Shown: positions 1,001 through 31,599 of the stretch, piece by piece
Layout: each line of letters opens with the position of its first letter
Numbering within the stretch: position 1 is the first letter of the stretch
From: Candidatus Omnitrophota bacterium
GTDB lineage: Bacteria; Verrucomicrobiota; Verrucomicrobiia; Limisphaerales; UBA1319
DNA length: 35,082 nucleotides
Direction of reading: 5' to 3'
Assembly (NCBI GenBank): GCA_023473405.1
Contig: JAMCZD010000408.1
Location: forward strand, 1 to 35,082
Notes under the pieces: model-generated
What the model saw: the letters and a program-made list of their open reading frames with translations, nothing else
What the model was told of the DNA's origin: nothing
Database searches by the model: none
Position numbers and translations under genes: made by a program

Positions 1001-1427
1001 TGCATTAAGTTTAATAATTCATTCTTCGGGAGATTGCTAATGGGGTGATTTGGAGACAAAAAAGGTTAAGAGTTTGCCAAAGGCGGTGGAGTCGTTGCAC
1101 CCAGGCAATGCTATGGTTGGCTTACTATTATTTTTGATTATGAACGACCGGTTGAGGGAAAACCTTGAATTATCAGCAGTTCGGCGGGTCGCCGGATGCC
1201 GGCGCGCTTTTATGCGTGGGCGCCGAGCTTCCTTTGGCAGCCTGTCGGAAGGTCGCGCTGATGATTGGGGAAGGGGAAAGCGAAACCGGTGTCGTGAAAT
1301 CATCGAGACCGGAATCTCCAGCCGGCCCGGAACGGCCAACGGGTAATCCAGCGGGGCCACATGAACACCAGAGATTCAGGTTGCCCGGCGGGCAACCCCA
1401 TCCGGTTCAGATTAATCCACAAAGACT
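1001..1427 (+). promoter_or_regulatory. Long (427 nt) intergenic leader/promoter region upstream of the hydrogenase operon; function unknown
   Basis: No credible coding signal: only short, mutually overlapping ORFs on both strands. The 5' third is AT-rich. The 3' two thirds are GC-rich with local stems (1224-1255, 1286-1312, 1381-1395). It is much longer than any spacer inside the downstream operon. Confidence 0.3.
1084..1099 (+). promoter_or_regulatory. Candidate sigma54 -24/-12 element (CGGTGGAGTCGTTGCA)
   Basis: GG-N10-GC spacing with TTGCA at the -12 side, compared with the consensus TGGCAC-N5-TTGCA. The -24 flank is poor. It was found post hoc, and no enhancer-binding protein gene is in the window. 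Confidence 0.2.
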
Positions 1428-3461
1428 ATGGCTCATAGGCTAACTACATGCACCTTCTGCGGTGTTGGCTGCGGAATCTACCTCGAGACCGCGGGAAACC
1501 GGGTTATGGGTGCTTATCCGAGTATGTCACATCCGACCAACCAGGGCCGGATTTGCATACGGGGTTGGAATGTGCATGAGGTAGCCAGCTCGCCCGACCG
1601 TCTCAAGACGCCGCTCATCAAGAAGAACGGCCAGTTTCACGAGGCGAGCTGGGACGAAGCCCTTGGCTTGGTCGCACGGCGGTTGACCGAAATCCGGGAT
1701 CGTCATGGCCCGGACGCGCTGGCTTTTTTCAATTCGCCCCGGTGTTCGAACGAGGAGAGTTACCTGCTGCAAAAACTCGCCAGGGCGGTCATCGGGACGC
1801 ATAATGTGGACCATGGCACGGGGGTATATTGCAACAACAGCATTCACGTGCTTCTGGATATGCTGGGCTTGCCAGCCACCACAAACTCGATTGGGGAACT
1901 GGACCAAAGCGAAGTGATTGTGGTTGACGGGGTGGACCTGGCTCGGCAGTTGCCGACCATAGGCGGGCGGGTCATTCAGGCGCGGCTTAAAGGGGCCAAG
2001 GTCATCGTAATCGACACGCGGCGACATCGGCTGGCTGAGAACGCCGATTTTTTCCTCCAGGTCCGGCCCGGGACGGAGGTGCTGCTGTATGGCGCCATGG
2101 CGAAGGTCATTGTGGACCGCGGCCTGATGAATCTCCCGTTCATACACGCCCATTGCCGGCAATACGAGGACTTCCTGGATAAGGTCCGGGACTACGATCT
2201 TTTGTCGGCCGCCGATCTTTGCGGGGTGCCGGCGGACCTGATCGAGGCGGCCGCGCTGGCATATGCGGGCGCTTCCTCGGCGGCCCTGCTTTATTCGACG
2301 GGCATCGAGGCGCGCGGCAAGGAAAGCATACGCGCCATTGTGAACCTGGCGCTATTGACGGGCCAGATCGGGAAGCCGGGCGCGGGGCTTTATGCCTTGA
2401 CCGAGCACAACAATCTGCAGGGGGTTTGCGACATGGGGATGCTGCCGGACCGACTGCCGGGGTACCAACCCATCTCGAACGACGCCTTTCGGGCGCGCCT
2501 GGAATCGCTGTGGTCGGCCAAACTGCCGGTTCAAACCGGGCTGGGGGCGGGCGGTCTTTTTCAGAGCGGGGGCCGAAGCAAGATCAAGGCCCTTTGGCTT
2601 GGCCGCTACGATCCGGTCACGACCGCGCTCTTCGGGAATGTAGTTGAATCGCTTAAACAGCTCGAGTTGGTGGTAGTCCAGCATTTATTCATGACGGGAA
2701 CGGCGCAGTATGCGGATGTCATCCTGCCTGTGGTGGCATTTGGCGAGGAAAAGGTGTCGTTTACCAGCACCGATCGCCGGATTCAATTGGCCGAGAAAGT
2801 GATCGATCCCCCGCCCGGCCCGCGACCAGCTTGGGAGCAGATCACGCAATTGGCACGTCATTTGGGGGCGGACTGGAGCTATGCGAATACGTCCGAGATC
2901 ATGGACGAGATAGGCGAGGTGATCCCGTTTTACAGCGGGGCAAGCCATGAGAATCTGGCGCGGGACTACGGCCGGCAGTGGCCTTGCACGAAGGACAAGC
3001 CGCTGGGGACGCGGTACCTGTTTGAAGAGGGTTTAACCGGGCAACCTTTCAAGTTTCTGCCCATTGTCAAACCGGGGGCCACAACGGCGATTACGGCGGA
3101 CTATCCCCTGGCCTTGGTTTTCGGCCATTCACTTTACTACTGGAACCAAAACGTGTTGATCAAGCATAGCGAGACCCTGAAACGCGAGTATCGCATCCTT
3201 CTGCTCGATTACCCGGATGGATTTGTGGAGATCAACAGCGAGGACGCCCGGCAAATGGGTCTGCGCGACGGGCAGAAGATTCGGTTGCGCGCTCCGAGCG
3301 GTTCGGCCGTCACCTCCGCGCGGGTGACGCACGAGGTTAAGGCCGGCACGATCATCGTCCCGTTTTTTGTGCGCGAGGTTCAGAAGCAAATCCTGGGAGA
3401 AACCGCGGCCGACACCGGCATCTTAAAGCATCCGGTGTGTGTCCGGATCGAAAAGGTATAA
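1428..3461 (+). CDS. FdhH-like molybdopterin/tungstopterin (bis-PGD) oxidoreductase subunit with a non-canonical active-site region
   Basis: 677-aa ORF. N-terminal Mo/W-bisPGD-type 4Fe-4S motif 'CTFCGVGC...GRICIRGW' (C-x2-C-x3-C...C). It is colinear, from memory, with E. coli FdhF blocks ('LARAVIGTHNVD', 'NNLQGVCDMGMLPD', 'LELVVVQHLFMT...ADVILP'). The stop at 3459-3461 lies 2 nt before the next ATG. Confidence 0.85.
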   Translation: MAHRLTTCTFCGVGCGIYLETAGNRVMGAYPSMSHPTNQGRICIRGWNVHEVASSPDRLKTPLIKKNGQFHEASWDEALGLVARRLTEIRDRHGPDALAFFNSPRCSNEESYLLQKLARAVIGTHNVDHGTGVYCNNSIHVLLDMLGLPATTNSIGELDQSEVIVVDGVDLARQLPTIGGRVIQARLKGAKVIVIDTRRHRLAENADFFLQVRPGTEVLLYGAMAKVIVDRGLMNLPFIHAHCRQYEDFLDKVRDYDLLSAADLCGVPADLIEAAALAYAGASSAALLYSTGIEARGKESIRAIVNLALLTGQIGKPGAGLYALTEHNNLQGVCDMGMLPDRLPGYQPISNDAFRARLESLWSAKLPVQTGLGAGGLFQSGGRSKIKALWLGRYDPVTTALFGNVVESLKQLELVVVQHLFMTGTAQYADVILPVVAFGEEKVSFTSTDRRIQLAEKVIDPPPGPRPAWEQITQLARHLGADWSYANTSEIMDEIGEVIPFYSGASHENLARDYGRQWPCTKDKPLGTRYLFEEGLTGQPFKFLPIVKPGATTAITADYPLALVFGHSLYYWNQNVLIKHSETLKREYRILLLDYPDGFVEINSEDARQMGLRDGQKIRLRAPSGSAVTSARVTHEVKAGTIIVPFFVREVQKQILGETAADTGILKHPVCVRIEKV

Positions 3462-3463
3462 CC

Positions 3464-4552
3464 ATGCGAGCCAAAGTAATAGACCGCGCCGAGGTGCTGA
3501 AGATAGTGGACCTGCTCCGGAAGGACTACGAGGTGCTGGCGCCCTTTTGCGGGCGGGGTCGGGACACCTTCTTTGACATCGTTACCGACGAGAATCGCGA
3601 TCAAATCCAAATCCACGTTCCGAATCCTTATTATCCGCCGAAGCGTTTTGTGCTGCCACATATCGAGCGGTTGCTCAAGATCGAGCAGCACGATCACACG
3701 CTGCGGGTGGAGCCGACTTACGACGAGGAACCCCGCGCCATTTTCGGCATTCGATCGTGCGACGTTGCGGGGATATATCATTTGGACCGGTTTTATCTTG
3801 GCGGGAAGTTCCGTGACATTTATTACGAAAAGCGCCGCAAGAACCTCTTCCTGGTCAACATGGTCTGCACCGATCCCGAGCTAGATATCGACGAGGAATG
3901 CTTCTGTGTATGCGCCGATACCGGACCGGCGGCGCGGGATCATTTTGACTTGCAGTTGATGGACCTGGGCGCCGAGTTCATGGTGGTAGCCGGTTCGGCG
4001 CGCGGCGAAGCCTTGCTGGCGCATCCGCTGTTTAAGAATGGCACCGCCGAACACCTGGAGAAACGGCGCCGAATCCTCGAGGAAGCGCGAGGGCATTTCA
4101 AAAAGGCCAACAGTTGGTTCGCAGCCACGATTCGTTACATGACCCAGGACCGCATCCTGGAAAAGACCTGGGAGGAAGTCGGCCATCGTTGTCTCGAATG
4201 CGGCGGCTGCACCTACGTGTGTCCGGCGTGCACCTGCTTCAGCGTTACCGACCGCCAGGTAGGTCCCGGCGAGATCGAACGGATTCGGCTTTGGGACTCG
4301 TGCGCCCTGGGCGGTTTTACCCGCATGGCCGGGGGATTCAATCCGCGCCGGGCGGTGCACGACCGGAGGAATCGTCGATTCTTTCGCAAATTGGCCCATT
4401 ATTTTATCCAGCGCGAGTTATCCATGGCCTGTGTGGGCTGCGGCCGTTGTGTGGCCGTCTGCCACGGAGACGTGGGCATGCCCAGCGTTGTGGAAATGAT
4501 CCGGCGCGCCACGGCCGCAAACGAGAAACATGAACCCGTCACCAACGCCTAA
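3464..4552 (+). CDS. HydB/AsrA-like iron-sulfur protein (sulfhydrogenase beta / anaerobic sulfite reductase A family)
   Basis: I moved the start from 3437 to ATG 3464 (MRAKVID...), because 3437 would overlap the upstream gene. There are two ferredoxin-type cluster motifs near the C-terminus, 'CLECGGCTYVCPACTC' and 'CVGCGRCVAVCHGD'. Length and layout fit the HydB/AsrA family. Confidence 0.7.
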   Translation: MRAKVIDRAEVLKIVDLLRKDYEVLAPFCGRGRDTFFDIVTDENRDQIQIHVPNPYYPPKRFVLPHIERLLKIEQHDHTLRVEPTYDEEPRAIFGIRSCDVAGIYHLDRFYLGGKFRDIYYEKRRKNLFLVNMVCTDPELDIDEECFCVCADTGPAARDHFDLQLMDLGAEFMVVAGSARGEALLAHPLFKNGTAEHLEKRRRILEEARGHFKKANSWFAATIRYMTQDRILEKTWEEVGHRCLECGGCTYVCPACTCFSVTDRQVGPGEIERIRLWDSCALGGFTRMAGGFNPRRAVHDRRNRRFFRKLAHYFIQRELSMACVGCGRCVAVCHGDVGMPSVVEMIRRATAANEKHEPVTNA

Positions 4553-5378
4553 CGTATTTTTGCCGAAGATCGCGATCCTGGACCGAGTGGATTCGGAGAT
4601 CGACGATGTTAAGACTTTTTATTGGCATTTCAAGGACCCTGCCGATCAGGAGGCCTTCCGTGTATTCCGGCCCGGCCAATTCGCCCAGGTGTCGATTTTC
4701 GGGGTGGGCGAGTTTCCCGCCTCGCTCCCGCCGAGCCCGACGGAGAACGAATACTTCTTCACGATTCGCCAGGTCGGCAGTGTCACCGCGGCATTGCACC
4801 AGCTGAAGCCGGGCGCGGTTTTTGGCGTTCGCGGACCGTACGGCAATGGTTTTCCGATGGAAGAGTATTACGGGCGGAACCTGGTGTTTGTGGCTGGGGG
4901 GATCGGGCTGATCCCGTTGCGGTCCTGCATCGTATATGCCCTCCATTTTCGGAAGAAATACAAAAAAATACAAATCTTCTACGGGTCGCGCGTTCCGAAG
5001 GACTTGCTCTATCTCGAGACGCTGAGGAAATGGCAAAAGACCGAGGGATTCGAATGTCACCTCACGGTGGATCGATCGACGGAGGGTTGGAACGGTCCGG
5101 TGGGCGTGGTTGGCAGCCTGTTCAAGAAGCCCGGGGTGTCGGTTCCGGTTGAGAACACCGTCGCCTTTGTTTGTGGTCCTCCGATAATGTTCCGCTTCGT
5201 GATCCGCGACTTGAAAACCATGGGATTCGAGGACGTGAACATAGTTTCCACGCTGGAACGTTACATGAAATGCGGGGTAGGCAAATGCGGTCATTGCTGC
5301 ATCGGCGTGGCTTATGTGTGTGTCGATGGTCCTGTGTTCACTTACGCGCAAATCCAAAAGTTGGGAGAGGAAATCTGA
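4530..5378 (+). CDS. HydG/AsrB-like FAD/NAD(P)-binding oxidoreductase with C-terminal [2Fe-2S] (sulfhydrogenase gamma / PyrK family)
   Basis: 'FTIRQVGSVT' (FAD R-x-x-S/T motif), 'LVFVAGGIGLIPL' (GGxGxxP nucleotide motif) and C-terminal 'CGVGKCGHCC...CVDGPVF' cluster motif. It overlaps the upstream gene by 23 nt. Confidence 0.8.
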   Translation: MNPSPTPNVFLPKIAILDRVDSEIDDVKTFYWHFKDPADQEAFRVFRPGQFAQVSIFGVGEFPASLPPSPTENEYFFTIRQVGSVTAALHQLKPGAVFGVRGPYGNGFPMEEYYGRNLVFVAGGIGLIPLRSCIVYALHFRKKYKKIQIFYGSRVPKDLLYLETLRKWQKTEGFECHLTVDRSTEGWNGPVGVVGSLFKKPGVSVPVENTVAFVCGPPIMFRFVIRDLKTMGFEDVNIVSTLERYMKCGVGKCGHCCIGVAYVCVDGPVFTYAQIQKLGEEI

Positions 5379-5893
5379 TGCCTGACCTTCGACAGCAGTT
5401 GTCCAAGTGCCTACGGGGCCGGGTCTGCCTGATTGGCCTTGGCAACGAGGATTGGGGGGACGATGGATTTGGGCTGAAACTGGCCCGGGCCATTCATACC
5501 GGCAGCAGCGCGAATGTCTTCCAGGGAGGCACTTGTCCAGACCGGGTCCTGGCGAAGATGGTTCCGGGGCAATACGATCATGTTGTTTTTCTGGATGCGG
5601 TGGATTTCGGAGGTGCACCGGGGTCGGTGGTGTTGTTGGACGCAACGGAGATGTCCAGCCGCTTTCCGCAAATTTCCACGCACAAGATTTCACTTGGGCT
5701 GCTGGCGAAGTGGGTGGAGACCGGGAGCACGACGAAGGCTTGGCTGCTCGGTGTCCAACCCGCCTCGCTGAGGCCGGCGGCCGAACTCAGCGCCGAGGTT
5801 CGAGTCACTTTGGAGATACTTGAGAATTTGTTGGATGAAGTATTGGAGGCAGAGCCTCTAAAACAGGCCGAGGAATTGTTGGGTGTATCATGA
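5378..5893 (+). CDS. hycI: Hydrogenase maturation endopeptidase (HycI/HyaD family)
   Basis: The ATG at 5378 overlaps the upstream TGA (TGATG). 'CLIGLGNEDWGDDGFG', 'FLDAVD' and 'STHK' match the Asp/Asp/His pattern of HycI-type proteases. The track start at 5171 is rejected because it overlaps the hydG-like gene in another frame. Confidence 0.8.
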   Translation: MPDLRQQLSKCLRGRVCLIGLGNEDWGDDGFGLKLARAIHTGSSANVFQGGTCPDRVLAKMVPGQYDHVVFLDAVDFGGAPGSVVLLDATEMSSRFPQISTHKISLGLLAKWVETGSTTKAWLLGVQPASLRPAAELSAEVRVTLEILENLLDEVLEAEPLKQAEELLGVS

Positions 5894-7854
5894 CAGCTGA
5901 ACATGCCGTTTTTTATAGTTTCATAGTCTGCGCCTTGGGCGCACTGCTGACACTGTTTCTGGGGGGAAACCGCCGGGTCGCGGGCTGGACGGCCTTTGTG
6001 GCCGCGGGCGTTTCCAGTTTGCTGGTGTTATATGGTGCAGGCAAGACGTTGGTGTCGGGCCCGGAGGATGCGGTGTCGTTCCTGGCGCTGCCGCGGTATG
6101 GGCTTGACCTCAGGCTTTATGTGGACGGCTTGAGCGCGCTTTTTCTGGGGTTAATCGCCGTGATTGCGGTGTTGTCCGCGTTTTACTCGATAGCCTACAT
6201 GGAGAGCTACCCGGAGTATGGTGTGAGGCGTTACTATCCATGGTTCCTGTTATTTGTGGGGGCGATGTATGGCATCGTTTCCATCACCGATACCATGGTC
6301 GTGTTTTTCCTGTTCTGGCAGATCATGACTTTTGCATCTTATGCCTTGGTTCGGTTCGAGTATAAGAGGCCGGAGAATGTCCGGGCTGCCTGGAAGTATT
6401 TGATCATGATGCAGATCGCCTGCGTCCTGGTCATGCTTGGCGCGGCCATGTTGGCGCCCGCGCCCGGCGGTGCCGCGGGCGGAGAAGCCATAAACCGGTT
6501 CGACTTCGACGTCTTGAGCGCTCATTTGCCAATGCTTTTGCGCGATCACAGCGCCTGGGCAGCGGTTGCTTTCGCCCTTTTCCTGGCTGGATTCGGCATC
6601 AAGTTGGGCATGTGGCCGTTTGGCCAAATCTGGCTGCCGGACGCGCATCCGGCCGCGCCATCGCCGGTGAGCGCCTTGCTGTCGGGCGTGATGATCAAGA
6701 CTGGGGTGTATGGGGTGGCGCGTTGCTTTTTGTGGCTGGTGCCAGCGGCGGGTCAAAAGGATTATCCGAGTCAAGGCTGGGGAGTGCTGATTGCGGTCTT
6801 GGGAACGATAACCCTTTTTTCGGGCACCATGCAGGCGCTCAAACAGGAGCAATCCAAGCGTTTGCTGGCCTTCCACAGCATCGGCCAGGTTGGATATATT
6901 CTGCTGGGCTTGGGGACCTGCCTGGCCTTGATGTCACCCGCTAATCCGGCCGTTATGGCGATTGGCGTGATCGGGTTGTGCGGCGCCTTGTTTCACACCT
7001 TGAATCACGGCTTGTTCAAGAGCCTGCTGTTCATGAACGCCGGTTCGATGCTGCACGCCACGGGGACGCAGGACCTGAATAAACTGGGCGGTTTGATGAG
7101 ATACATGCCGCTGACGGCTCTAACCGCGCTGGTGGCATCCTTTTCCATCTCGGGAGTTCCCTTGTTCAACGGGTTTGCCAGCAAATGGATCCTTTACTCA
7201 GCGGCTATCCAGGGTGGCTCGACAGCCCGATACCTGCCAGCGTGCGCCCTGGTGGCGATTTTGACGAGCGCCTTGACCTTGGCTTCGTTTATAAAATTCT
7301 TTGGTGTCAGTTTTCTCTCCAGGACGAGCGCCAGGGTGAAAGAACGGGTGGCTCAAGGGCAGCCGCTCGAAGTCGGGCCGCTCATGCAAGCGCCCCAACT
7401 GATTTTGGCGGCGTGCTGTCTGTTTCTGGGGGTAGTCCCCGGCGTGGCCGTGCACATCATTGGACTGGCAATCGACCATAGCCGCCAAGGTCTGGGGGTG
7501 TTTCTGGCCAATGCGCCGATGCTGGGCAACGGTCCTTGGGGCGGACTGCATGATCCCCAGGGGAAGGCTGTCTGGATTCCACTGGCCATTGTTTTGGTTT
7601 TTGCGTGTTTATTTGCGTTCGTTCACGGAATCACCCGATTGGGCGGGGCCACCCGGAAGGCAGTTCCGCCCTGGTTATGCGGTTACGCGCTTGAGACGGA
7701 TGCGAATCGCTATGGTGCTCACAATTTCTACGGTGAAATCAAGCGTTACTTCCGCTGGATAGGCGGTTCCCCTGCCCCGCAGCCAACGCGGCCACAGGCT
7801 GAATCGGCTGTTTCCACCAATCTTCCACCCACAGCAGCCGGCCGAACCGGCTAA
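5890..7854 (+). CDS. hycC: Antiporter-like membrane subunit of a group-4 hydrogenase (HycC/HyfB/NuoL family)
   Basis: 654 aa and very hydrophobic. Family stretches: 'WPFGQIWLPDAHPAAPSPVSALLSGVMIKTGVYG', 'LAFHSIGQVGYILLGLG' and 'LFHTLNHGLFKSLLFMNAGS'. ATGA overlap with the hycI stop. Confidence 0.8.
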   Translation: MTAEHAVFYSFIVCALGALLTLFLGGNRRVAGWTAFVAAGVSSLLVLYGAGKTLVSGPEDAVSFLALPRYGLDLRLYVDGLSALFLGLIAVIAVLSAFYSIAYMESYPEYGVRRYYPWFLLFVGAMYGIVSITDTMVVFFLFWQIMTFASYALVRFEYKRPENVRAAWKYLIMMQIACVLVMLGAAMLAPAPGGAAGGEAINRFDFDVLSAHLPMLLRDHSAWAAVAFALFLAGFGIKLGMWPFGQIWLPDAHPAAPSPVSALLSGVMIKTGVYGVARCFLWLVPAAGQKDYPSQGWGVLIAVLGTITLFSGTMQALKQEQSKRLLAFHSIGQVGYILLGLGTCLALMSPANPAVMAIGVIGLCGALFHTLNHGLFKSLLFMNAGSMLHATGTQDLNKLGGLMRYMPLTALTALVASFSISGVPLFNGFASKWILYSAAIQGGSTARYLPACALVAILTSALTLASFIKFFGVSFLSRTSARVKERVAQGQPLEVGPLMQAPQLILAACCLFLGVVPGVAVHIIGLAIDHSRQGLGVFLANAPMLGNGPWGGLHDPQGKAVWIPLAIVLVFACLFAFVHGITRLGGATRKAVPPWLCGYALETDANRYGAHNFYGEIKRYFRWIGGSPAPQPTRPQAESAVSTNLPPTAAGRTG

Positions 7855-7868
7855 CCCCTGAACTTGCC

Positions 7869-9548
7869 ATGGTTGCCCGCGAAATTTTAGAAAAGATCAA
7901 GCAAAAATTCGGCCCCGCGATTCCACGCGCCGACCTGCCGGCGCCGGGCCGCCTGTTTATATTTGCGAATCCTTCCGCGCTGAAGGAAATCTGCCAATTC
8001 ATTTTCCATGATCTCAATGCGCGCTACGTCATCAGTATTGGCGCCGACGATCGACCCGTTTCGGGCCAGTTCATGGTGGCCCACAACTTTGCCTTTGATA
8101 ACCTTCACTTGTTATCGAGTGTCCTGACATACGTGGATGGCGAACCGCCCGTAGTCGACTCGATTTCCGGAGTGGTTCCGGCGGCCAATTGGGCTGAACG
8201 CGAGTTTCGGGACCTGGTCGGGATTCAACCCAAAGGCCATGCGTATCCGAAGCGCTTGATCCTGTCTGATGGCTGGCCCGAGGGGGTGCATCCATTGCGC
8301 AAGGATGTGCCTTGGAATTTTGTGCCGCCGAATTACGACGATCAAAAGGAATTCACCTTCGAGGACCCGCCCGAGGGTTGCGTGGTGGTTCCATTCGGGC
8401 CATTCCATCCCACGCTCGATGAACCGGCGCATTTCCGGCTTTACGTTGAGGGTGAAATGGTTCGGGGTTGCGAGTATCGCGGCTTCATGGCTCATCGCGG
8501 CATCGAGAAGCTGGCGGAATCGGTTCTGACCTACAACGAGATTCCGATGGCAGCCGAGCGCATCTGCGGCATCTGCGGCTGCGTTCACAACGTGGCTTAC
8601 GCCCAGGCGGTGGAACAGGCCGCGGCAATCCGTCCGCCGCCGCGCGCCGAGTATGTTCGCACGATCATGCTCGAAGTCGAGCGACTGCATAGCCACTTGC
8701 TCTGGGTAGGGTTGGCCAGTCACATCCTGGGCTTCGATACCCTGTTCATGCAGAGCTTCCGGATGCGCGAGCCGATCATGTGGATAGCCGAGAAGATCAG
8801 CGGCAACCGCAAGACTTACGCCCTCTGCACCATCGGCGGTGTGCGTTGGAACTTTACCCCGGAGCTCAAGGCTGAGTTGCGCCAGGTTCTCGATAAACTC
8901 GAAACCGAGTGGCGCGCCGCCGCCGATGCCATAAGCCGGGACCGCAACGTGCAGAAACGCACGCGCGGGATTGGCATTGCCGACCAGGCCTTGATTCGCA
9001 GGGCGGCCATGGTGGGACCGGTGGCACGCGCCGGCGGTGTGGACATCGATTGCCGCCGCGACCATCCCTATGCGGCCTATGACCAGGTCGAATTCAAGGT
9101 TATCGTCGAACCGGATGGCGATGTTTGGTCGCGCATTTTGGTCCGGGTGAAAGAAGTCTTTGAATCGATCAAGATTATCCGGCAATGCCTCGAAAAAATG
9201 CCCAATGGCCCCATCCAATTGGAAATCCGGGCCGAATTGCCGCCCGGCAGGATCGGCCTCTCATCGGTCGAAGCACCACGCGGTGAATCACATCATTTTG
9301 TCATAACCGGCGAGAATAACCGGCCGCGCCGGTGGCGGGTGCGGGCGCCAACATATCAAAACCTTCAGGGCATCCCGGCAATGATCAAAGACCAGCAATT
9401 GGCCGACATGACGATTACCCTGGGCAGCATCGACCCATGTTTCTCATGCACCGATCGGCTCGAGACCATTGACCTTCGTTCCGGACGGACCCGGGTGTAT
9501 TCGCAGGAGGAACTCGTCCGCCTGGTTCGCGCCCGAAAGGACTCATGA
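7869..9548 (+). CDS. hycE: Group-4 [NiFe]-hydrogenase large subunit, fused NuoC-NuoD type (HycE-like)
   Basis: 559 aa. N-terminal NuoC-like part ('ANWAEREFRDLVGIQPKGH'). NiFe ligand motifs L1 'RICGICGCVH' (8559-8588) and L2 'DPCFSCTDR' (9432-9458). A 29-aa C-terminal extension follows, typical of protease-processed HycE. Confidence 0.9.
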   Translation: MVAREILEKIKQKFGPAIPRADLPAPGRLFIFANPSALKEICQFIFHDLNARYVISIGADDRPVSGQFMVAHNFAFDNLHLLSSVLTYVDGEPPVVDSISGVVPAANWAEREFRDLVGIQPKGHAYPKRLILSDGWPEGVHPLRKDVPWNFVPPNYDDQKEFTFEDPPEGCVVVPFGPFHPTLDEPAHFRLYVEGEMVRGCEYRGFMAHRGIEKLAESVLTYNEIPMAAERICGICGCVHNVAYAQAVEQAAAIRPPPRAEYVRTIMLEVERLHSHLLWVGLASHILGFDTLFMQSFRMREPIMWIAEKISGNRKTYALCTIGGVRWNFTPELKAELRQVLDKLETEWRAAADAISRDRNVQKRTRGIGIADQALIRRAAMVGPVARAGGVDIDCRRDHPYAAYDQVEFKVIVEPDGDVWSRILVRVKEVFESIKIIRQCLEKMPNGPIQLEIRAELPPGRIGLSSVEAPRGESHHFVITGENNRPRRWRVRAPTYQNLQGIPAMIKDQQLADMTITLGSIDPCFSCTDRLETIDLRSGRTRVYSQEELVRLVRARKDS

Positions 9549-9579
9549 ACGAAATGGATTGCCTTGCCGAAAGGAAACT

Positions 9580-10506
9580 ATGAAGCCTGACTTGATAAAC
9601 ACGCTGGGTGGCGGTCTGCTGAACGTCCTGATCCTTCTGGTCACGGCACCGTTTTTCGAAGGTGTTCTGCGCAAGATCACCGCCATGATTCAGTCGCGCC
9701 AGGGACCGCCTCTCCTGCAGCCTTACTTCGACCTGCTTAAGCTGCTTGGAAAAGACGACCTCGAATCGGGGGAAAGCCCCGGCATGCAACGGTTTGCCGC
9801 TTGCTTGTCTCTTGCCTCCATTTTGGCCGTGGCGTGGCTTGTGCCGATGGTCGGGTGGCCGCCGCTGAACGGGGCGGGAGACGTTATTCTCCTGGTTTAC
9901 CTGCTGACCTTATGCTGCGTCTCGACTTTATTGGCGGGACTGGCTGCCGGCTCGACTTATTCGCTCATGGGCATAAGCCGTGAAATGATGACCATGATCA
10001 CGCTCGAACCGTTGTTCGTCGTTGCCATACTGGTCGGCGCGGTTCATACCCGGTCATTGCGGCTCGACGAGGTGCTCAGTGGATCGGTTTATGCAGCCGG
10101 GCATTTTCCATGGTCGGGTTGGATCATGCTGGTGGTCTTGCTGATTTCATTTCAGGCCTTGGTGAACCGCGTGCCTTTCGACATCGCCGAGGCGGAAACC
10201 GAGATCATGGAAGGGCCGCTGATGGAATACTCGGGGCCCAAGCTGGCCCTGTTCAAGTACGCGCAAATGTCGAAGCTCGTGGTATACAGCGCGCTATTCA
10301 TCGGTCTGTTCGTTCCCTGGGGATCGGGGCTGCCGTTCCCGGCGAACCTGTGCGTGTTTTGGCTCAAGATATTCGTGGTGGTTCTAGGCGTTACGCTGGT
10401 GGCAGCAACCCACGCGCGATATCGCATTGACCAGGCGATTCGTTACTTTGCCGGGTTATTGGGAGTAGCGTTCATTGCCCTGGTTCTTGCCGTTTATGGC
10501 TATTAA
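9580..10506 (+). CDS. hycD: Membrane subunit HycD/NuoH family
   Basis: I moved the start to ATG 9580 (MKPDLINTL...), which is preceded by AAGGAAA. The 9469 start would overlap hycE. Motifs: 'QSRQGPPLLQPYFDLLKLL' and 'PFDIAEAETEI' (NuoH/HycD). Polytopic hydrophobic profile. Confidence 0.85.
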   Translation: MKPDLINTLGGGLLNVLILLVTAPFFEGVLRKITAMIQSRQGPPLLQPYFDLLKLLGKDDLESGESPGMQRFAACLSLASILAVAWLVPMVGWPPLNGAGDVILLVYLLTLCCVSTLLAGLAAGSTYSLMGISREMMTMITLEPLFVVAILVGAVHTRSLRLDEVLSGSVYAAGHFPWSGWIMLVVLLISFQALVNRVPFDIAEAETEIMEGPLMEYSGPKLALFKYAQMSKLVVYSALFIGLFVPWGSGLPFPANLCVFWLKIFVVVLGVTLVAATHARYRIDQAIRYFAGLLGVAFIALVLAVYGY

Positions 10507-10575
10507 ACCTTGGCGGTATGAGATTGTCGTTGTCCAAAACCGGGTAATCCAAAACGTTTTTGATCGAGGTGCAAG

Positions 10576-11103
10576 ATGTCCGTAATCAGCAAATTTAAAG
10601 AGGCGTTGATCTGCCTGAAGGCAGGCCGGGTGACCCTGCCGTATCCCGCCAAGGCCAATCCGCCCCCCACCAGGTTCCGCGGCCGGCCCAAATTCGACGC
10701 CGCCAAGTGCATAGGTTGCGCCGGTTGCGCAAATAATTGTCCCTCCCGCGAAATCCTCGTGTTCGATGTTTGCCAGGAGATTCGCATTTTGAAATACCTG
10801 GGACGCCGCTGCACTTATTGCGGACGTTGCGCCGACGTGTGTCCGGAAAAGGCCATCACCATGACCAACGAATTCGAGAATGCAACCGACCGGATTCACG
10901 ATCTGGAGCAGCACCTCGAGTTATTCATGAGCACCTGCCAGCGATGCGGGCGTTGTTTCGAAGAACCCAGCCCGCTCGAACAATTGATGTTGAAAGGCTA
11001 TCGCTTCGACGACCTGGCCGATGAGCGCTGGGTCTTCCGGTCCCGTGCCTACCTGGAAAACGCGCCGGTGGTTCAAGACATTGACATCCAATTCGATCCG
11101 TGA
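10576..11103 (+). CDS. hycF: 2x[4Fe-4S] ferredoxin-like subunit HycF/NuoI family
   Basis: 'CIGCAGCANNCP' and 'CTYCGRCADVCP' motifs, plus an extra 'CQRCGRC'. At 175 aa it is similar in size to HycF. Confidence 0.8.
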   Translation: MSVISKFKEALICLKAGRVTLPYPAKANPPPTRFRGRPKFDAAKCIGCAGCANNCPSREILVFDVCQEIRILKYLGRRCTYCGRCADVCPEKAITMTNEFENATDRIHDLEQHLELFMSTCQRCGRCFEEPSPLEQLMLKGYRFDDLADERWVFRSRAYLENAPVVQDIDIQFDP

Positions 11104-11146
11104 TCCAACGGGCCGCTCGATTCGAGCGGACCAAGTCCTGTAAGTT

Positions 11147-11683
11147 ATGTTAAAGAATTTGTGCCAGAGAATGTTTGCCCGGTCACTCTGGGTGTATCAT
11201 GCCAACAGCGGGGGCTGCAACGGCTGCGACATCGAGGTGCTGAACGTGTTGACGCCCTACTACGACGTTGAGCGGTTCGGGATCAAACTCGTCGGTTCAC
11301 CCCGTCACGCGGATGTCATGCTGTGCCAGGGACCTGCTCTGCGCACTACTTCCAAGGCGCTCCGGCGCGCTTACGAGGCTATGCCCAGCCCGAAATTGGT
11401 TTTTGCCATTGGTTCCTGCGCATGCGGCGGCGGTCTGTGGTATGACACCTACAATGTCATCGGCCCCATTGAAAAGATCATCCCCGTCAATTATTTTATA
11501 CCCGGCTGCCCGCCGCAGCCTGAGGCAATCATTTATGGGGCGGCGGTCGCGCTGGGCCTGGTGGACAAGAAGGTGGCGCCGGTGCAATTCAAGCAATACG
11601 AACTGCCCATCCCCAGGTACCACCCGAAAGACCTGCGCCAGGCCGATGATATGGTAATTTACGAAAAGACCGAGCACGTCTAA
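11147..11683 (+). CDS. hycG: Group-4 [NiFe]-hydrogenase small subunit HycG/NuoB family
   Basis: Proximal-cluster cysteines 'GGCNGCDIE', 'GSCACGGG' and 'IPGCPP'. 178 aa. Confidence 0.85.
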   Translation: MLKNLCQRMFARSLWVYHANSGGCNGCDIEVLNVLTPYYDVERFGIKLVGSPRHADVMLCQGPALRTTSKALRRAYEAMPSPKLVFAIGSCACGGGLWYDTYNVIGPIEKIIPVNYFIPGCPPQPEAIIYGAAVALGLVDKKVAPVQFKQYELPIPRYHPKDLRQADDMVIYEKTEHV

Positions 11684-11685
11684 CC

Positions 11686-12024
11686 ATGCACGAGTTTCCC
11701 GAAGTCCAACAATTGGTGCGGGACGCCTTAACGCGTGTTCCCCAATCGAAACGCATCAGGCGTTTGGTAATCGCCATAGGTGAGGCTTCGGGGATCACGC
11801 CCGAAGGCATTGAGCATCACTTCCCCGCCGCAGCTCGAGGAACCCCGGCTGAGAACGCCGTCCTGGAATTCCAGCGCGAGAAACTGGCGGCACGCTGCGC
11901 TCATTGCGCCGCCGAGTTCAAGCCCCAGGGCATGGCGTTGGCTTGCCCACAATGCGGTTCAACTGAACTAACGATAACCGGGGGGCAAGGCGTGCGGTTG
12001 GCCGACATCGAAATCGGTTCCTGA
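11686..12024 (+). CDS. hypA: Hydrogenase nickel-insertion protein HypA
   Basis: N-terminal 'MHE' nickel motif and zinc site 'CAHC...CPQC'. 112 aa. It starts 2 nt after the hycG stop. Confidence 0.85.
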   Translation: MHEFPEVQQLVRDALTRVPQSKRIRRLVIAIGEASGITPEGIEHHFPAAARGTPAENAVLEFQREKLAARCAHCAAEFKPQGMALACPQCGSTELTITGGQGVRLADIEIGS

Positions 12025-13080: not shown

Positions 13081-13665
13081 TTACTTTTCCCCCAACGTCA
13101 GCCGCAGGGTGGTCATATAGTTGCGCGAGACGGGTCCGATTTGAAAGTGGCTTGCCGACAAGGCCAGCCTCCGGAAGATCGCATCATACTCGGCGGCGCT
13201 TATCGGCCAGCAGCCAAGTAACCCTGCCGCCACTTGCCAGACGTAGTAATGCAACGCGTTAAATGATTTACCATCGGGCCGGCGGCGCAGATTCGAGTAG
13301 ACCTCCTCGAATTGACCGTCGGTCTGATCACCAAAGGCGTCGCCAAAGGTGAATAAATGCTTTTCAATAAAGTAGAATAAGGGCATGTATGCCGGTGGCG
13401 GACCCTTGTCCATCTCGCCGGGGGACGGTTTTTCTCTGCGGTATAACGCGCGTAGCGACGGCACTACCCAAAGGGCTGCCTTTTCCCCATCATACACCAA
13501 GACTTCGTCGCGCGCAGCGAGGTCCATTTTGTCTCTAATCATCTTCAAGCCGACCGTCAGCTTCCGATCATTGAGACCATCGGCGCGCACCACTTCCCTC
13601 AGTGTAGGATGCAGGTCTATCGCATCCATCACTGCTTGCACTTCCCGAACCTCGTCTTCTTTCAT
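13081..13665 (-). CDS. Hypothetical protein with no domain I recognise
   Basis: ORF 13081..13692 on the - strand. The track start at 13692 is a TTG. The ATG at 13665 is preceded by AAGAGG-N6 and is preferred (MKEDEVREVQ...). It is convergent with the Gfo gene (15-nt gap) and divergent from the giant gene. Confidence 0.55.
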   Translation of the reverse strand: MKEDEVREVQAVMDAIDLHPTLREVVRADGLNDRKLTVGLKMIRDKMDLAARDEVLVYDGEKAALWVVPSLRALYRREKPSPGEMDKGPPPAYMPLFYFIEKHLFTFGDAFGDQTDGQFEEVYSNLRRRPDGKSFNALHYYVWQVAAGLLGCWPISAAEYDAIFRRLALSASHFQIGPVSRNYMTTLRLTLGEK

Positions 13666-13901
13666 AGAATGCCTCTTATTGTACCTCACCAAGCTTTCGA
13701 TGCAACGTTTGTCTTGAATCCGCCCTGCCTTCCCCGCAAAGAAGAGCGGGGCAGACCTCCGATTTGCCGGTTAGCCGGGCCTCCGGCCCGGAGTCTCGGC
13801 ATCCCCAAAAGCGTCGAGCCAGAGGCTCCATGAACCGGCAGACCGGAGGTCCGTCCTACTCTTCGGCCTGAACAGTAAAAATATTTTGTTATTAGCTTGC
13901 A

Positions 13902-31592: not shown

Positions 31593-31599
31593 CCGAATT

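What the first reader, a model, noticed from the sequence alone, without database searches (positions are those of the whole stretch)
1428..12024. Hybrid energy-converting hydrogenase operon: FHL-type group-4 core plus sulfhydrogenase-type NAD(P)H module plus FdhH-like subunit, with no HycB
Ten genes are packed with spacers of 0-70 nt or overlaps (TGATG at 5378, ATGA at 5890, a 23-nt overlap at 4530). The order is FdhH-like Mo/W subunit, HydB/AsrA-like 2x[4Fe-4S] protein, HydG/AsrB-like FAD/NAD(P)/[2Fe-2S] protein, HycI, HycC, HycE, HycD, HycF, HycG, HypA. The catalytic core has intact group-4 NiFe ligand motifs (L1 'RICGICGCVH', L2 'DPCFSCTDR'), so it is not an Ehr-type relic. In the textbook E. 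coli formate hydrogenlyase, the ferredoxin-like HycB wires FdhF to HycF/HycG. Here no HycB-like gene is present, and its position is taken by the beta/gamma diaphorase pair otherwise known from cytosolic group-3b sulfhydrogenases and from AsrAB. This predicts a membrane-bound hydrogenase with a single antiporter-like subunit that exchanges electrons with NAD(P)(H), and possibly with a second substrate at the Mo/W subunit. That would be ion-gradient-coupled NAD(P)H:proton oxidoreduction or a confurcating variant. I know of no biochemically characterised complex with this subunit set.
Basis: partly seen in the sequence, partly recalled or inferred. Interest (0 to 1): 0.75.

Follow-up and report, generated by a model that had tools for sequence, protein, structure and literature searches.

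The report
NAD(P)H-wired membrane hydrogenase, degenerate FDH subunit
This is a real, tightly packed operon for a membrane-bound nickel-iron hydrogenase that appears to draw electrons from NAD(P)H rather than formate, because its formate-dehydrogenase-like subunit has lost its catalytic residues; the same operon is widespread in soil bacteria, was noted in silico in a 2026 paper, and has never been studied biochemically.

Summary
Ten co-directional genes at 1428-12024 have the stated domains, junctions and intact NiFe ligand motifs. The 35-kb window has no HycB/HyfA homologue.

The interpretation needs three corrections.

1. The "FdhH-like Mo/W subunit" lacks all three formate-dehydrogenase catalytic residues (Sec/Cys140 to Tyr/Phe, His141 to a variable residue, Arg333 to Thr). 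It has also lost 11 residues that FDHs share with NapA, in a pattern like cofactor-less NuoG. It keeps its [4Fe-4S] ligands. Formate is therefore an unlikely substrate, and the subunit may be a Mo-free scaffold.

2. The operon is not rare. The nine-gene core keeps the same order in all 85 loci examined, from five or more phyla including the cultured Fontisphaera persica. The scan found 171 stretches encoding a relative of the HydB-like protein in species-representative genomes.

3. The architecture is already in print. Takano et al. 2026 (PMC13582414) describe it in silico and propose confurcation. Earlier papers called it formate hydrogenlyase or "enigmatic".

My best reading (about 0.5) is an ion-coupled NAD(P)H:H+/H2 oxidoreductase. 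Its input module (SHI-type beta/gamma pair plus degenerate FDH) parallels complex I's NuoEFG.

It is still uncharacterised biochemically. I file it as a new member of a kind known only in silico. Interest is moderate.

The parts
1190..1204 (+). Terminator-like hairpin after the upstream NIF3-family gene. It probably marks the upstream limit of the transcription unit and leaves a leader of about 220 nt.
   Evidence: CGCCGG-ATG-CCGGCG followed by a T-rich tail. Terminator-like sites in the region are not more frequent than in shuffles, so this is weak. No Rfam match in 1000-1460 at E <= 5. No sigma-54-like site with <= 2 mismatches.
1428..3461 (+). G1: FDH-derived Mo/W-bisPGD-fold subunit (677 aa). 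It is cytoplasmic (no Tat signal), keeps the N-terminal [4Fe-4S] ligands, and has lost the catalytic residues.
   Evidence: Pfam and NCBIfam. Full-length match to F420-FDH alpha 9t1s_L, HDCR FdhF 7qv7_S and E. coli FdhH 1aa6. FdhH U140->Y, H141->C, R333->T. C8, C11, C15, C43 and R45 are invariant in 80 species. Position 134 is Y68/F12 and position 135 is C59/S12/G4/T2/R2/A1. 20 of 69 FDH-conserved columns are lost. NapA keeps 11 of those 20, and NuoG has also lost 16 of them.
3464..4552 (+). G2: sulfhydrogenase-beta (HydB/ShyB/AsrA)-like poly-FeS protein, 362 aa, with 16 invariant cysteines.
   Evidence: Fer4_22 at 95 bits. ShyB, HydB and AsrA models at 147-159 bits, all below their cutoffs. 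The only PDB match is P. furiosus SHI beta 9nez_B, E = 4e-37, with all Cys motifs aligned. 16 Cys are conserved in 85/85 loci.
4530..5378 (+). G3: sulfhydrogenase-gamma (HydG/ShyC/AsrB)-like FAD / NAD(P) / [2Fe-2S] subunit, 282 aa. It overlaps G2 by 23 nt.
   Evidence: NAD_binding_1 and DHODB_Fe-S_bind. PRK08345 at 253 bits. SHI gamma 9nez_C at E = 1.6e-58, with GPYGNGF, GGxGxxPLRS and CGxGKCGHC aligned. C248, C253, C256 and C264 are invariant.
5378..5893 (+). G4: HycI-type large-subunit maturation endopeptidase. It lies between the input-module genes and the core genes (TGATG and ATGA overlaps).
   Evidence: PF01750, and TIGR00072 at 87 bits, above its cutoff. Junctions.
5890..7854 (+). G5: single HyfB-like antiporter-type membrane subunit, 654 aa. 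TM7, TM8 and TM12 lysines are kept. The TM5 Glu is replaced by Gln.
   Evidence: PRK06521 (HyfB) at 398 bits. Alignment with NuoL/M/N, HycC and HyfB/D/F. The position is Q/M/L and never E in 88 orthologous HSPs. 8 of 85 loci carry two copies.
7869..9548 (+). G6: [NiFe] large subunit with a fused NuoC-like N-terminal domain (HycE architecture), 559 aa.
   Evidence: Pfam. Best solved relative is E. coli HycE 7z0s_E at 410 bits; MbhL scores 231 bits. 39.6% identity to HycE and 37.5% to HyfG. L1 and L2 motifs and the 29-aa C-terminal tail. The four Ni ligands are invariant in 68-70 loci.
9580..10506 (+). G7: HycD/HyfC/NuoH-like membrane subunit, 308 aa.
   Evidence: PF00146 at 205 bits. 33-34% identity to HycD and HyfC.
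10576..11103 (+). G8: HycF/HyfH/NuoI-like subunit with two [4Fe-4S] motifs, 175 aa, plus a C-terminal CxxCxxC motif.
   Evidence: PRK12387 and PRK08222. The eight ferredoxin-motif Cys are conserved in 62-63 of 63 loci, and C121, C124 and C127 are invariant. Alignment with HycF and HyfH.
11147..11683 (+). G9: HycG/HyfI/NuoB-like small subunit, 178 aa (one proximal [4Fe-4S]). It lacks the long N- and C-terminal extensions of E. coli HycG.
   Evidence: PF01058 at 104 bits. 46% identity to HycG and HyfI. C24, C27, C91 and C121 are invariant. Alignment.
11686..12024 (+). G10: HypA nickel metallochaperone. It is an accessory gene and not part of the conserved core.
   Evidence: PF01155 at 87 bits. 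It follows the operon in only 8 of about 61 loci that extend past G9.

Best explanation
The operon encodes one membrane-bound, ion-translocating group-4 [NiFe] hydrogenase. Its core is a minimal Hyc/Hyf-type set: a fused NuoC-NuoD large subunit, a NuoB-like small subunit, a NuoI-like 2x[4Fe-4S] subunit, a NuoH-like subunit and one HyfB-like membrane subunit.

Its electron-input module is not FdhF-HycB. It is a sulfhydrogenase-type diaphorase pair plus an FDH-derived subunit.

Proposed electron path: NAD(P)H <-> FAD and [2Fe-2S] in G3 <-> several [4Fe-4S] clusters in G2 (taking the place of HycB) <-> the two [4Fe-4S] clusters in G8 <-> the proximal [4Fe-4S] in G9 <-> the NiFe site in G6.

The reaction NAD(P)H + H+ <-> NAD(P)+ + H2 would be coupled through G7 and G5 to ion movement. 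One direction would dispose of fermentative reductant as H2, helped by or feeding the membrane potential depending on H2 pressure. The other would reduce NAD(P)+ with H2 while conserving energy.

G1 descends from a formate dehydrogenase but has lost the catalytic triad and many residues associated with the bis-MGD site. It most likely serves as a [4Fe-4S]-bearing scaffold attached to G2, as the FDH-like domain of NuoG does in complex I, and not as a formate-oxidising site.

Shown here: gene content, ligand conservation, loss of the FDH residues, invariant synteny.
Inferred: the physical complex, the electron path, NAD(P)H as the partner, ion coupling, loss of the cofactor.
For: - Domain and homology assignments for all subunits.
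- The NiFe ligands, the C-terminal tail and an in-operon HycI protease point to an active hydrogenase.
- All FeS, FAD and NAD(P) motifs of G2 and G3 align with the structurally solved NADPH-oxidising SHI beta and gamma, and they are invariant across 82-85 loci.
- No HycB/HyfA is present.
- The order G1-G2-G3-G4-G5(-G5)-G6-G7-G8-G9 is unchanged in every one of 85 loci wherever the contig extends. These come from Verrucomicrobiota, Acidobacteriota, Methylomirabilota, Nitrospirota and Armatimonadota.
- The G2/G3, G3/G4 and G4/G5 genes overlap, which fits translational coupling.
- More distant Fdh-like relatives (38-61% identity), each with a different degenerate motif, are still followed by a HydB-like gene.
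- G1 has lost U/C140, H141 and R333.
- In 80 species the U140 position is Y or F, and the next position is C, S, G, T, R or A, so there is no conserved metal ligand.
- 11 of the 20 FDH-conserved residues that G1 lost are kept by the Mo enzyme NapA. Cofactor-less NuoG has also lost 16 of the 20 (Fisher p = 0.004).
- Invariant Gly334 and Gly402 of FDHs are an invariant Glu and Arg here.
- The G1 [4Fe-4S] ligands are invariant.
- Takano et al. 2026 report AlphaFold models of related clusters as one assembled complex, with the FeS network reaching the large subunit, SHI-gamma and the Fdh-like protein.
- Fontisphaera persica, a cultured carrier, ferments sugars. Related Limisphaera ferment with H2 as a product and have only group 3 and 4 [NiFe] hydrogenases.
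Against: - I could not test any protein-protein interface here, because no multimer modelling was available.
- The G5-G9 core has the same module set as ferredoxin-dependent Ech, so it could work without G1-G3.
- The replacement residues in the G1 pocket are themselves strongly conserved (G136, G138, Y140, E334 and R402 are invariant). That also fits a remodelled but functional site.
- Cofactor loss is inferred from residue patterns only. My identification of which FdhH residues touch MGD is from memory.
- The antiporter-like subunit lacks the TM5 Glu found in E. coli HyfB and HycC and in NuoL/M/N, so efficient ion pumping is not assured.
- NADH versus NADPH is not resolved. The 'GSR' after the second beta-strand is only a hint towards NADPH.
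Confidence: 0.5

Rival explanations
1. Three-site electron confurcating/bifurcating complex, as proposed by Takano et al. 2026. The FeS network branches from G2 to the NiFe site, to FAD/NAD(P)H in G3, and to a remodelled but active site in G1 that turns over an unidentified third substrate. H2 formation would then be driven jointly by NAD(P)H and that substrate.
For: AF3-based proposal for related clusters. The G1 pocket replacements are under strong purifying selection (Y140, E334, R402, G136 and G138 are invariant in 120 homologues). The G1 [4Fe-4S] and the Arg at the FdhH Lys44 position are invariant, as expected if electrons still pass through G1. G1 is kept at full length with all domains.
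Against: There is no conserved candidate metal ligand, since positions 134/135 are Y/F and C/S/G/T/R/A. 11 residues shared by FDH and NapA are lost, in a NuoG-like pattern. Closest outgroups carry mutually different degenerate motifs (Y-R-T, A-S-I, G-A-T, Y-D-L), which argues against one conserved new chemistry. No candidate substrate, transporter or substrate-linked gene lies in the window.
Confidence: 0.2
2. Two co-transcribed but physically separate enzymes. G5-G9 would be an Ech-like, ferredoxin-dependent, energy-converting hydrogenase. G1-G3 would be a soluble NAD(P)H-linked FeS flavoprotein, for example one that exchanges electrons with ferredoxin or another carrier and only feeds the hydrogenase functionally.
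For: G5-G9 contain exactly the six Ech modules. The G1-G2(-G3) association persists in relatives as distant as 38% identity, on contigs that end before any hydrogenase gene could be seen. No interface was tested here.
Against: The nine genes are never separated or reordered in the 85 loci examined, which were found through the HydB-like gene and its relatives and span five or more phyla. hycI sits between the two halves with overlapping stop and start codons. G8 and G6 are closest to HycF and HycE, which dock a HycB-type partner, rather than to other solved group-4 enzymes. Published AlphaFold models of related clusters assemble as one complex.
Confidence: 0.15
3. A genuine formate hydrogenlyase (formate -> CO2 + H2), as acidobacterial versions have been annotated ('fdhF, hyf operon', group 4a).
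For: G1's best models and best solved relatives are formate dehydrogenases. The large subunit is closest to E. coli HycE. Literature annotation.
Against: Sec/Cys140, His141 and Arg333 are all replaced, across 120 homologues and 80 species. TIGR01591 is below its cutoff. There is no HycB/HyfA. No formate channel or FhlA-type regulator is in the window.
Confidence: 0.05

Closest known systems
Group 4 [NiFe] hydrogenase clusters with a Cys/Sec-less Fdh plus SHI-beta/gamma homologues (Takano et al. 2026, Front Microbiol 17:1925269; in silico, assigned by HydDB to 'Group 4b')
   Same: The distinctive combination is the same: a group-4 core, an Fdh-like subunit lacking the Mo-ligating Cys/Sec, and homologues of P. 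furiosus SHI beta and gamma. The phyla overlap (Acidobacteriota, Methylomirabilota, Armatimonadota). Phylum-level HGT is frequent. The role is unknown.
   Different: That paper's typical 4b cluster has a HyfE-like subunit, several antiporter subunits and several ferredoxin subunits. This window has one antiporter-like gene, no HyfE and no extra ferredoxin. I could not verify that this large subunit falls in their subclade. Its L1 motif is CxxC, with no Sec variant among the 85 loci. The paper treats the Fdh-like protein as a possible third catalytic site. The residue pattern here points towards cofactor loss.
E. coli formate hydrogenlyase FHL-1 (HycBCDEFG + FdhF; PDB 7Z0S) and Hyf (hydrogenase 4), group 4a
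   Same: The large subunit has the same fused NuoC-NuoD architecture and is the best solved match (410 bits, 39.6% identity). HycD/F/G and HyfB/C/H/I counterparts are 31-46% identical. HycI-type maturation is present. An FDH-fold subunit is encoded alongside.
   Different: There is no HycB/HyfA, HycH/HyfJ or HyfE. The FDH-fold subunit lacks U140, H141 and R333. An SHI-type beta/gamma NAD(P)H module is added. HycE and HyfG are 70% identical to each other but only 38-40% identical to G6.
Pyrococcus furiosus soluble hydrogenase I (sulfhydrogenase, group 3b; PDB 9NEZ/9NF0)
   Same: G2 and G3 are homologues of its beta and gamma subunits, with all Cys, FAD and NAD(P) motifs aligned. These subunits carry the NADPH-oxidising function in SHI, as cited.
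   Different: SHI is cytosolic, and its beta/gamma pair feeds a group-3b alpha/delta hydrogenase. Here the pair is encoded with a membrane-bound group-4 core and an FDH-like subunit. NCBIfam equivalog cutoffs are not reached (159 vs 690 bits and 213 vs 600 bits).
Respiratory complex I N-module (NuoE/F/G), specifically the FDH-like C-terminal domain of NuoG
   Same: This is a 'works like' comparison. A flavin/NAD(H) entry site and an FeS relay are mounted on a NuoB/C/D/H/I/L-type module. An FDH-derived domain has lost the catalytic and cofactor residues but can keep the FS0/N7-type cluster. NuoG has lost 16 of the 20 FDH-conserved positions that G1 lost.
   Different: The flavoprotein is an FNR/PyrK-type FAD protein (G3), not NuoF/NuoE. 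The FDH-like protein is a separate polypeptide without NuoG's N-terminal FeS domains. The terminal site is NiFe (H+/H2), not quinone. This is an analogy and not membership.
Ech-type ferredoxin-dependent energy-converting hydrogenase (group 4e)
   Same: G5-G9 have the same minimal six-module composition.
   Different: Here the NuoC-like module is fused to the large subunit. The subunits are closest to HycE/F/G, and three extra input-module genes are invariably attached.
AsrABC anaerobic sulfite reductase
   Same: G2 and G3 score similarly against the AsrA and AsrB models (147 and 194 bits). A related cluster was annotated asrA/asrB in the literature.
   Different: No AsrC or sirohaem subunit is among the annotated genes. 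Both scores are below the curated cutoffs (323 and 289 bits).

Membership tests
Group 4 (energy-converting) [NiFe] hydrogenase | Large subunit of the NuoD/49-kDa type with both CxxC Ni-binding motifs (L1, L2) | tested here: met
   PF00346 and PF00374. RICGICGCVH and DPCFSCTDR. The four Cys are invariant in 68-70 orthologues.
Group 4 (energy-converting) [NiFe] hydrogenase | NuoB-like small subunit with one [4Fe-4S], a NuoI-like 2x[4Fe-4S] subunit, and NuoH-like and NuoL-like membrane subunits | tested here: met
   PF01058, Fer4 motifs, PF00146 and PF00361. Cys conservation.
Group 4 (energy-converting) [NiFe] hydrogenase | C-terminal processing of the large subunit by a HycI-type protease | tested here: inconclusive
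   A 29-aa tail follows the L2 Arg, and a HycI gene is in the operon. Cleavage itself cannot be tested with these tools.
Group 4 (energy-converting) [NiFe] hydrogenase | Ion translocation via conserved charged residues of the antiporter-like subunit | tested here: inconclusive
   TM7, TM8 and TM12 Lys are present, but the TM5 Glu is Gln (Q/M/L in all orthologues).
Formate hydrogenlyase (group 4a; Hyc/Hyf + FdhF) | FdhF-type formate dehydrogenase with Sec/Cys140, His141 and Arg333 | tested here: not met
   Y, C and T at these positions. Conserved as Y/F, variable, and T across the family. TIGR01591 scores 595, below its 666 cutoff.
Formate hydrogenlyase (group 4a; Hyc/Hyf + FdhF) | HycB/HyfA poly-ferredoxin linking FdhF to HycF | tested here: not met
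   No tblastn hit better than E = 0.14 anywhere in the window.
Formate hydrogenlyase (group 4a; Hyc/Hyf + FdhF) | Large subunit clusters with HycE/HyfG in phylogeny or HydDB | tested here: inconclusive
   HycE is the best solved relative (410 bits vs 231 for MbhL), but identity is only 38-40% against 70% between HycE and HyfG. HydDB and reference sets for 4b and 4f were not available.
Sulfhydrogenase / group 3b diaphorase module (beta + gamma) | Beta subunit with the Fer4_22 domain and the SHI-beta Cys pattern; gamma subunit with FAD, NAD(P) and [2Fe-2S] motifs | tested here: met
Sulfhydrogenase / group 3b diaphorase module (beta + gamma) | Encoded with, and serving, a cytosolic group-3b alpha/delta hydrogenase | tested here: not met
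   The only hydrogenase genes in the operon are group-4 type. NCBIfam equivalog cutoffs for ShyB/HydB and ShyC/HydG are not reached.
Sulfhydrogenase / group 3b diaphorase module (beta + gamma) | NADPH (rather than NADH) specificity | not testable with these tools
   The only hint is the sequence 'YGSR' after the second beta-strand of the NAD(P) domain. This is inference.
AsrABC anaerobic sulfite reductase | Sirohaem subunit AsrC encoded with AsrA and AsrB | tested here: not met
   No such domain in any operon or flanking gene scanned. The AsrA and AsrB scores are below their cutoffs.
Ehr/Mbx-type hydrogenase-related complexes | Loss of the NiFe-ligating cysteines | tested here: not met
   All four Cys are present and invariant.
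Takano et al. 2026 'Group 4b' clusters with Fdh-like + SHI-beta/gamma | An Fdh subunit lacking the Mo-ligating Cys/Sec, co-encoded with SHI-beta and SHI-gamma homologues and a group-4 core | tested here: met
   Description.
Takano et al. 2026 'Group 4b' clusters with Fdh-like + SHI-beta/gamma | HydDB assignment to 4b and placement in their subclade; HyfE-like subunit, multiple antiporter and ferredoxin subunits | tested here: inconclusive
   HydDB and their accession lists were not available. The window has one antiporter-like gene, no HyfE and no extra ferredoxin. 8 of 85 related loci have two antiporter genes.
Mo/W-bisPGD oxidoreductase (active, cofactor-containing) | A protein ligand to Mo/W (Cys, Sec, Ser or Asp) and conserved pterin-binding residues | tested here: inconclusive
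   There is no conserved ligand candidate. 11 residues shared by FDH and NapA are lost, as in NuoG. However, the fold is full length and the pocket replacements are conserved. Metal content cannot be tested here.

The most novel reading that the evidence does not exclude
The FDH-like subunit is a Mo-free, NuoG-like scaffold, and the complex is a proton-reducing counterpart of complex I. An FAD/NAD(P)H diaphorase recruited from a cytosolic sulfhydrogenase, plus a degenerate formate dehydrogenase, would together form an independently evolved 'N-module' on a Hyc-type membrane core. That would make it a living analogue of the proposed FHL-to-complex-I transition. It would also give abundant soil phyla (Acidobacteriota, Verrucomicrobiota, Methylomirabilota, Nitrospirota) an ion-gradient-coupled NAD(P)H:H2 valve that metagenomic surveys currently score as 'formate hydrogenlyase'.
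Probability: 0.35. Interest if true: 0.75.

Novelty: new member of a known kind. Interest (0 to 1): 0.55.

Why it matters
- No biochemically characterised group-4 hydrogenase is known to use NAD(P)H directly. An ion-coupled NAD(P)H:H2 enzyme would change how fermentative H2 release and H2 uptake are budgeted in peat, soil and groundwater, where the carrier phyla dominate.
- The operon is currently annotated as formate hydrogenlyase or as 'NADH-quinone oxidoreductase subunit C'. Metabolic reconstructions that infer formate-driven H2 production from it are therefore probably wrong.
- The degenerate FDH subunit combined with a recruited diaphorase gives a testable natural parallel to the origin of complex I's NuoEFG module.
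- A cultured, complete-genome carrier exists (Fontisphaera persica, CP116615.1), so the questions are experimentally tractable.

Tried and rejected
- **Moco or other riboswitch upstream of G1** (as a sign that G1 needs molybdenum cofactor). No Rfam match at gathering thresholds in the whole window, nor at E <= 5 in 1000-1460.
- **Sigma-54/FhlA-type promoter upstream.** No TGGCAC-N5-TTGC match with <= 2 mismatches. Sigma-70-like and terminator-like sites inside the operon are no more frequent than in shuffles.
- **Selenocysteine variants of the large subunit, as a link to the Takano subclade.** The two loci with no full-length G6 hit (L014, L030) turned out to have frameshifts with an intact CGICGC motif, not in-frame TGA. 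A fold of the 70 nt downstream of the second L1 Cys codon showed no obvious SECIS-like hairpin, and I did not pursue it.
- **HydDB-style subgroup assignment.** No 4b, 4c or 4f reference sequences could be obtained. Top-120 homologue lists are saturated by the same family. The Takano supplement is not held, and Greening 2016 is not held.
- **Group 4f (Ehf).** I considered it because the literature links 4f with fdhA. There is no evidence for it here.
- **Multimer modelling of G2 with G8 or G1.** Not possible with the single-chain predictor, so I did not spend structure jobs.
- **Biochemical characterisation in the literature.** Searches for a characterised NAD(P)H-dependent membrane-bound hydrogenase with this subunit set found none.

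Full report
**1. What is there**

| Gene | Coordinates | Assignment |
|---|---|---|
| G1 | 1428-3461 | Mo/W-bisPGD fold, FDH-like |
| G2 | 3464-4552 | Fer4_22; HydB/ShyB/AsrA-like |
| G3 | 4530-5378 | NAD_binding_1 + PyrK-type [2Fe-2S]; HydG/ShyC/AsrB-like |
| G4 | 5378-5893 | HycI |
| G5 | 5890-7854 | antiporter-like; best model HyfB |
| G6 | 7869-9548 | NuoC-NuoD fusion with NiFe motifs |
| G7 | 9580-10506 | NuoH/HycD-like |
| G8 | 10576-11103 | NuoI/HycF-like |
| G9 | 11147-11683 | NuoB/HycG-like |
| G10 | 11686-12024 | HypA |

L1 (RICGICGCVH) and L2 (DPCFSCTDR, followed by a 29-residue tail) are present. E. coli HycB, HyfA, HyfE and HycH find nothing in the 35-kb window.

The flanks are unrelated. 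They hold a NIF3-family gene, a Gfo/Idh/MocA oxidoreductase, and a 5,896-aa RTX/Calx-beta protein. Promoter-like and terminator-like matches inside the operon do not exceed the number found in shuffles. A terminator-like hairpin at 1190-1204 precedes it.

**2. It is a conserved, widespread unit**

The large subunit has more than 6,000 database relatives. The top 120 are 75-80% identical and come from Verrucomicrobiota, Acidobacteriota and NC10, including the cultured Fontisphaera persica. Contigs from three phyla show the same gene order.

A scan of GTDB species representatives with G2 found 171 stretches encoding a relative. The best 80 are 71-78% identical. They come from Verrucomicrobiota, Terriglobia and other Acidobacteriota, Methylomirabilota, Nitrospirota and Armatimonadota, plus MAGs labelled Chlamydiota and Methylacidiphilum.

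In all 85 loci the order G1-G2-G3-G4-G5(-G5)-G6-G7-G8-G9 is kept wherever the contig extends. Eight loci have a duplicated antiporter gene. hypA follows in only 8 of about 61 loci that reach that far. The first three genes are therefore inherited en bloc with the Hyc-like core, and the high identity across phyla indicates horizontal transfer. The beta/gamma pair is a routine part of this subgroup.

**3. The hydrogenase core**

G6 is closest to E. coli HycE among solved structures (7z0s_E, 410 bits; MbhL scores 231 bits). Identity is only 39.6% to HycE and 37.5% to HyfG, whereas HycE and HyfG are 70% identical to each other. The four Ni ligands are invariant in 68-70 orthologues. The cluster ligands of G8 and G9 are essentially invariant across the loci. 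With an in-operon HycI and a C-terminal tail, this looks like an active hydrogenase.

One oddity concerns the antiporter-like G5. It keeps the TM7, TM8 and TM12 lysines. The TM5 glutamate, present in NuoL/M/N and in E. coli HycC and HyfB/D/F, is Gln144 here. It is Q, M or L and never E in 88 orthologous alignments.

**4. The beta/gamma pair**

G2's only solved relative is P. furiosus sulfhydrogenase I beta (9nez_B, E = 4e-37). G3's best is SHI gamma (9nez_C, E = 1.6e-58). All cysteine motifs, the GPYGNGF and GGxGxxPLRS flavin/nucleotide motifs, and the CGxGKCGHC [2Fe-2S] motif are aligned. Sixteen cysteines in G2 and the [2Fe-2S] cysteines in G3 are invariant across 82-85 loci. The NCBIfam equivalog cutoffs for HydB/ShyB/AsrA and HydG/ShyC/AsrB are not reached, so these are relatives and not members of those named enzymes.

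**5. The 'FdhH-like' subunit is not a formate dehydrogenase**

G1 aligns end to end with F420-FDH alpha, HDCR FdhF and FdhH. At FdhH Sec140-His141 it reads Tyr-Cys, and at Arg333 it reads Thr. These changes hold in 120 close homologues.

Across 80 species, position 134 is Tyr (68) or Phe (12). Position 135 is Cys (59), Ser (12), Gly (4), Thr (2), Arg (2) or Ala (1). The four [4Fe-4S] cysteines and Arg45 are invariant. There is no conserved candidate metal ligand.

I then searched 1.8 billion cluster representatives. This gave 69 canonical FDH-type proteins with C-H-R and several nearer relatives with different degenerate motifs: Y-R-T, A-S-I, G-A-T and Y-D-L.

- Of 69 columns that are at least 90% conserved in the canonical set, G1 keeps 49. 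Canonical sequences keep at least 74%, with a median of 97%.
- Of the 20 lost positions, E. coli NapA keeps 11: K44, R138, C140, H181, G334, Q335, G453, D478, R581, N662 and D670. NapA is a Mo-bisMGD enzyme with another substrate.
- Cofactor-less E. coli NuoG has lost 16 of the same 20 (Fisher p = 0.004).
- Two glycines that are invariant in the canonical FDH set (334 and 402) are an invariant Glu and Arg in this family.

From this I infer that the bis-MGD site is remodelled and probably empty. The caveat is that the replacement residues are themselves strongly conserved, so a new ligand or function is not excluded.

Relatives down to 38% identity are still followed by a HydB-like gene. The degenerate FDH and the beta subunit therefore go together.

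**6. Mechanism**

The best-supported reading (about 0.5) is one membrane complex in which G3 takes or gives electrons to NAD(P)(H). G2 replaces HycB as the FeS hub. G8 and G9 carry electrons to the NiFe site. G7 and G5 couple the reaction to ion movement. G1 is a NuoG-like, cluster-bearing scaffold.

- Shown: the parts, their ligands, the loss of the FDH residues, the invariant linkage.
- Inferred: the assembly, the path, the nucleotide partner, the coupling, the cofactor loss.

Rivals:
- A three-site confurcating complex with an unknown substrate at G1 (0.2).
- Two separate enzymes, an Ech-like ferredoxin-dependent core plus a soluble G1-G3 (0.15).
- A genuine formate hydrogenlyase (0.05), which the active-site data argue against.

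**7. What is already known**

Takano et al. 2026 (PMC13582414) report that about half of the Fdh proteins in a large HydDB 'Group 4b' subclade lack the Mo-ligating Cys/Sec. Those clusters carry SHI-gamma and SHI-beta homologues. AlphaFold models show an FeS network branching to the large subunit, SHI-gamma and the Fdh-like protein. The authors propose bifurcation or confurcation among H2, NADPH and an unidentified substrate.

Matheus Carnevali et al. 2018 called a related Saganbacteria cluster (unclassifiable Mo-oxidoreductase + cooF + asrA + asrB + group 4 hydrogenase) 'enigmatic'. Hausmann et al. 2018 annotated an acidobacterial 'fdhF, hyf operon' as FHL, group 4a.

I found no biochemical work. 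I could not run HydDB or obtain 4b or 4f references, so the subgroup (4a-like versus 4b) is unresolved. The window's cluster is simpler than the 'typical 4b' cluster of that paper, with one antiporter gene, no HyfE and no extra ferredoxin.

**8. Verdict**

It is right about the hybrid architecture and the missing HycB. It is wrong to expect a working Mo/W site for formate, and it did not know that the operon is common and was recently described in silico. I file it as a new member of a kind that is known only from sequence.

What this analysis adds:
- Residue-level evidence that the FDH-like subunit resembles NuoG more than an enzyme.
- The invariant nine-gene synteny across five or more phyla.
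- The unusual TM5 residue of the antiporter-like subunit.
- A cultured carrier (Fontisphaera persica), which ferments sugars. Related Limisphaera species ferment with H2 as a product.

Noticed in passing
window 5890-7854 (G5), residue 144: The antiporter-like subunit has Gln where NuoL/M/N and E. coli HycC and HyfB/D/F have the TM5 Glu. Orthologues have Q (82), M (5) or L (1) and never E. The TM7, TM8 and TM12 Lys are kept. The consequence for ion coupling is unknown.
   Followed up: partly
window 13902-31592 (+): Giant 5,896-aa ORF with RTX nonapeptide repeats, Calx-beta and SdrD_B domains. The first 1,666 residues have no Pfam match. The Fontisphaera persica locus (L001 15895-21680, - strand) also has a >10,000-aa gene next to the operon.
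   Followed up: partly
window 13081-13692 (-): 203-aa ORF with no Pfam family at E <= 0.001, lying between the Gfo/Idh/MocA gene and the giant ORF.
   Followed up: no
window 1205-1427: Leader of about 220 nt between a terminator-like hairpin (1190-1204) and the G1 start. It has no Rfam match and no sigma-54-like site. I did not compare it across loci.
   Followed up: partly
L022 (Terriglobia MAG), upstream of the operon: A second, divergent HydB/HydG-like pair (34% and 41% identity to G2 and G3) lies immediately upstream of G1. It may belong to a neighbouring group-3b-type enzyme.
   Followed up: no
L014 about 14400-16000; L030 about 14370-16030: The large-subunit genes in these two MAG contigs are split across reading frames by frameshifts. 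The CGICGC motif is intact and there is no in-frame TGA. These are probably assembly errors or pseudogenes.
   Followed up: yes
window 10576-11103 (G8), residues 121-127: An invariant third Cys motif (CQRCGRC) follows the two ferredoxin motifs. E. coli HycF and HyfH have C-x2-C at the aligned place plus a later CPEC that G8 lacks. Whether it binds a metal is unknown.
   Followed up: partly
window 31592-35082: Only short ORFs of 221 aa or fewer are listed after the giant gene. An ORF running off the window end would not be listed. I did not annotate this region.
   Followed up: no
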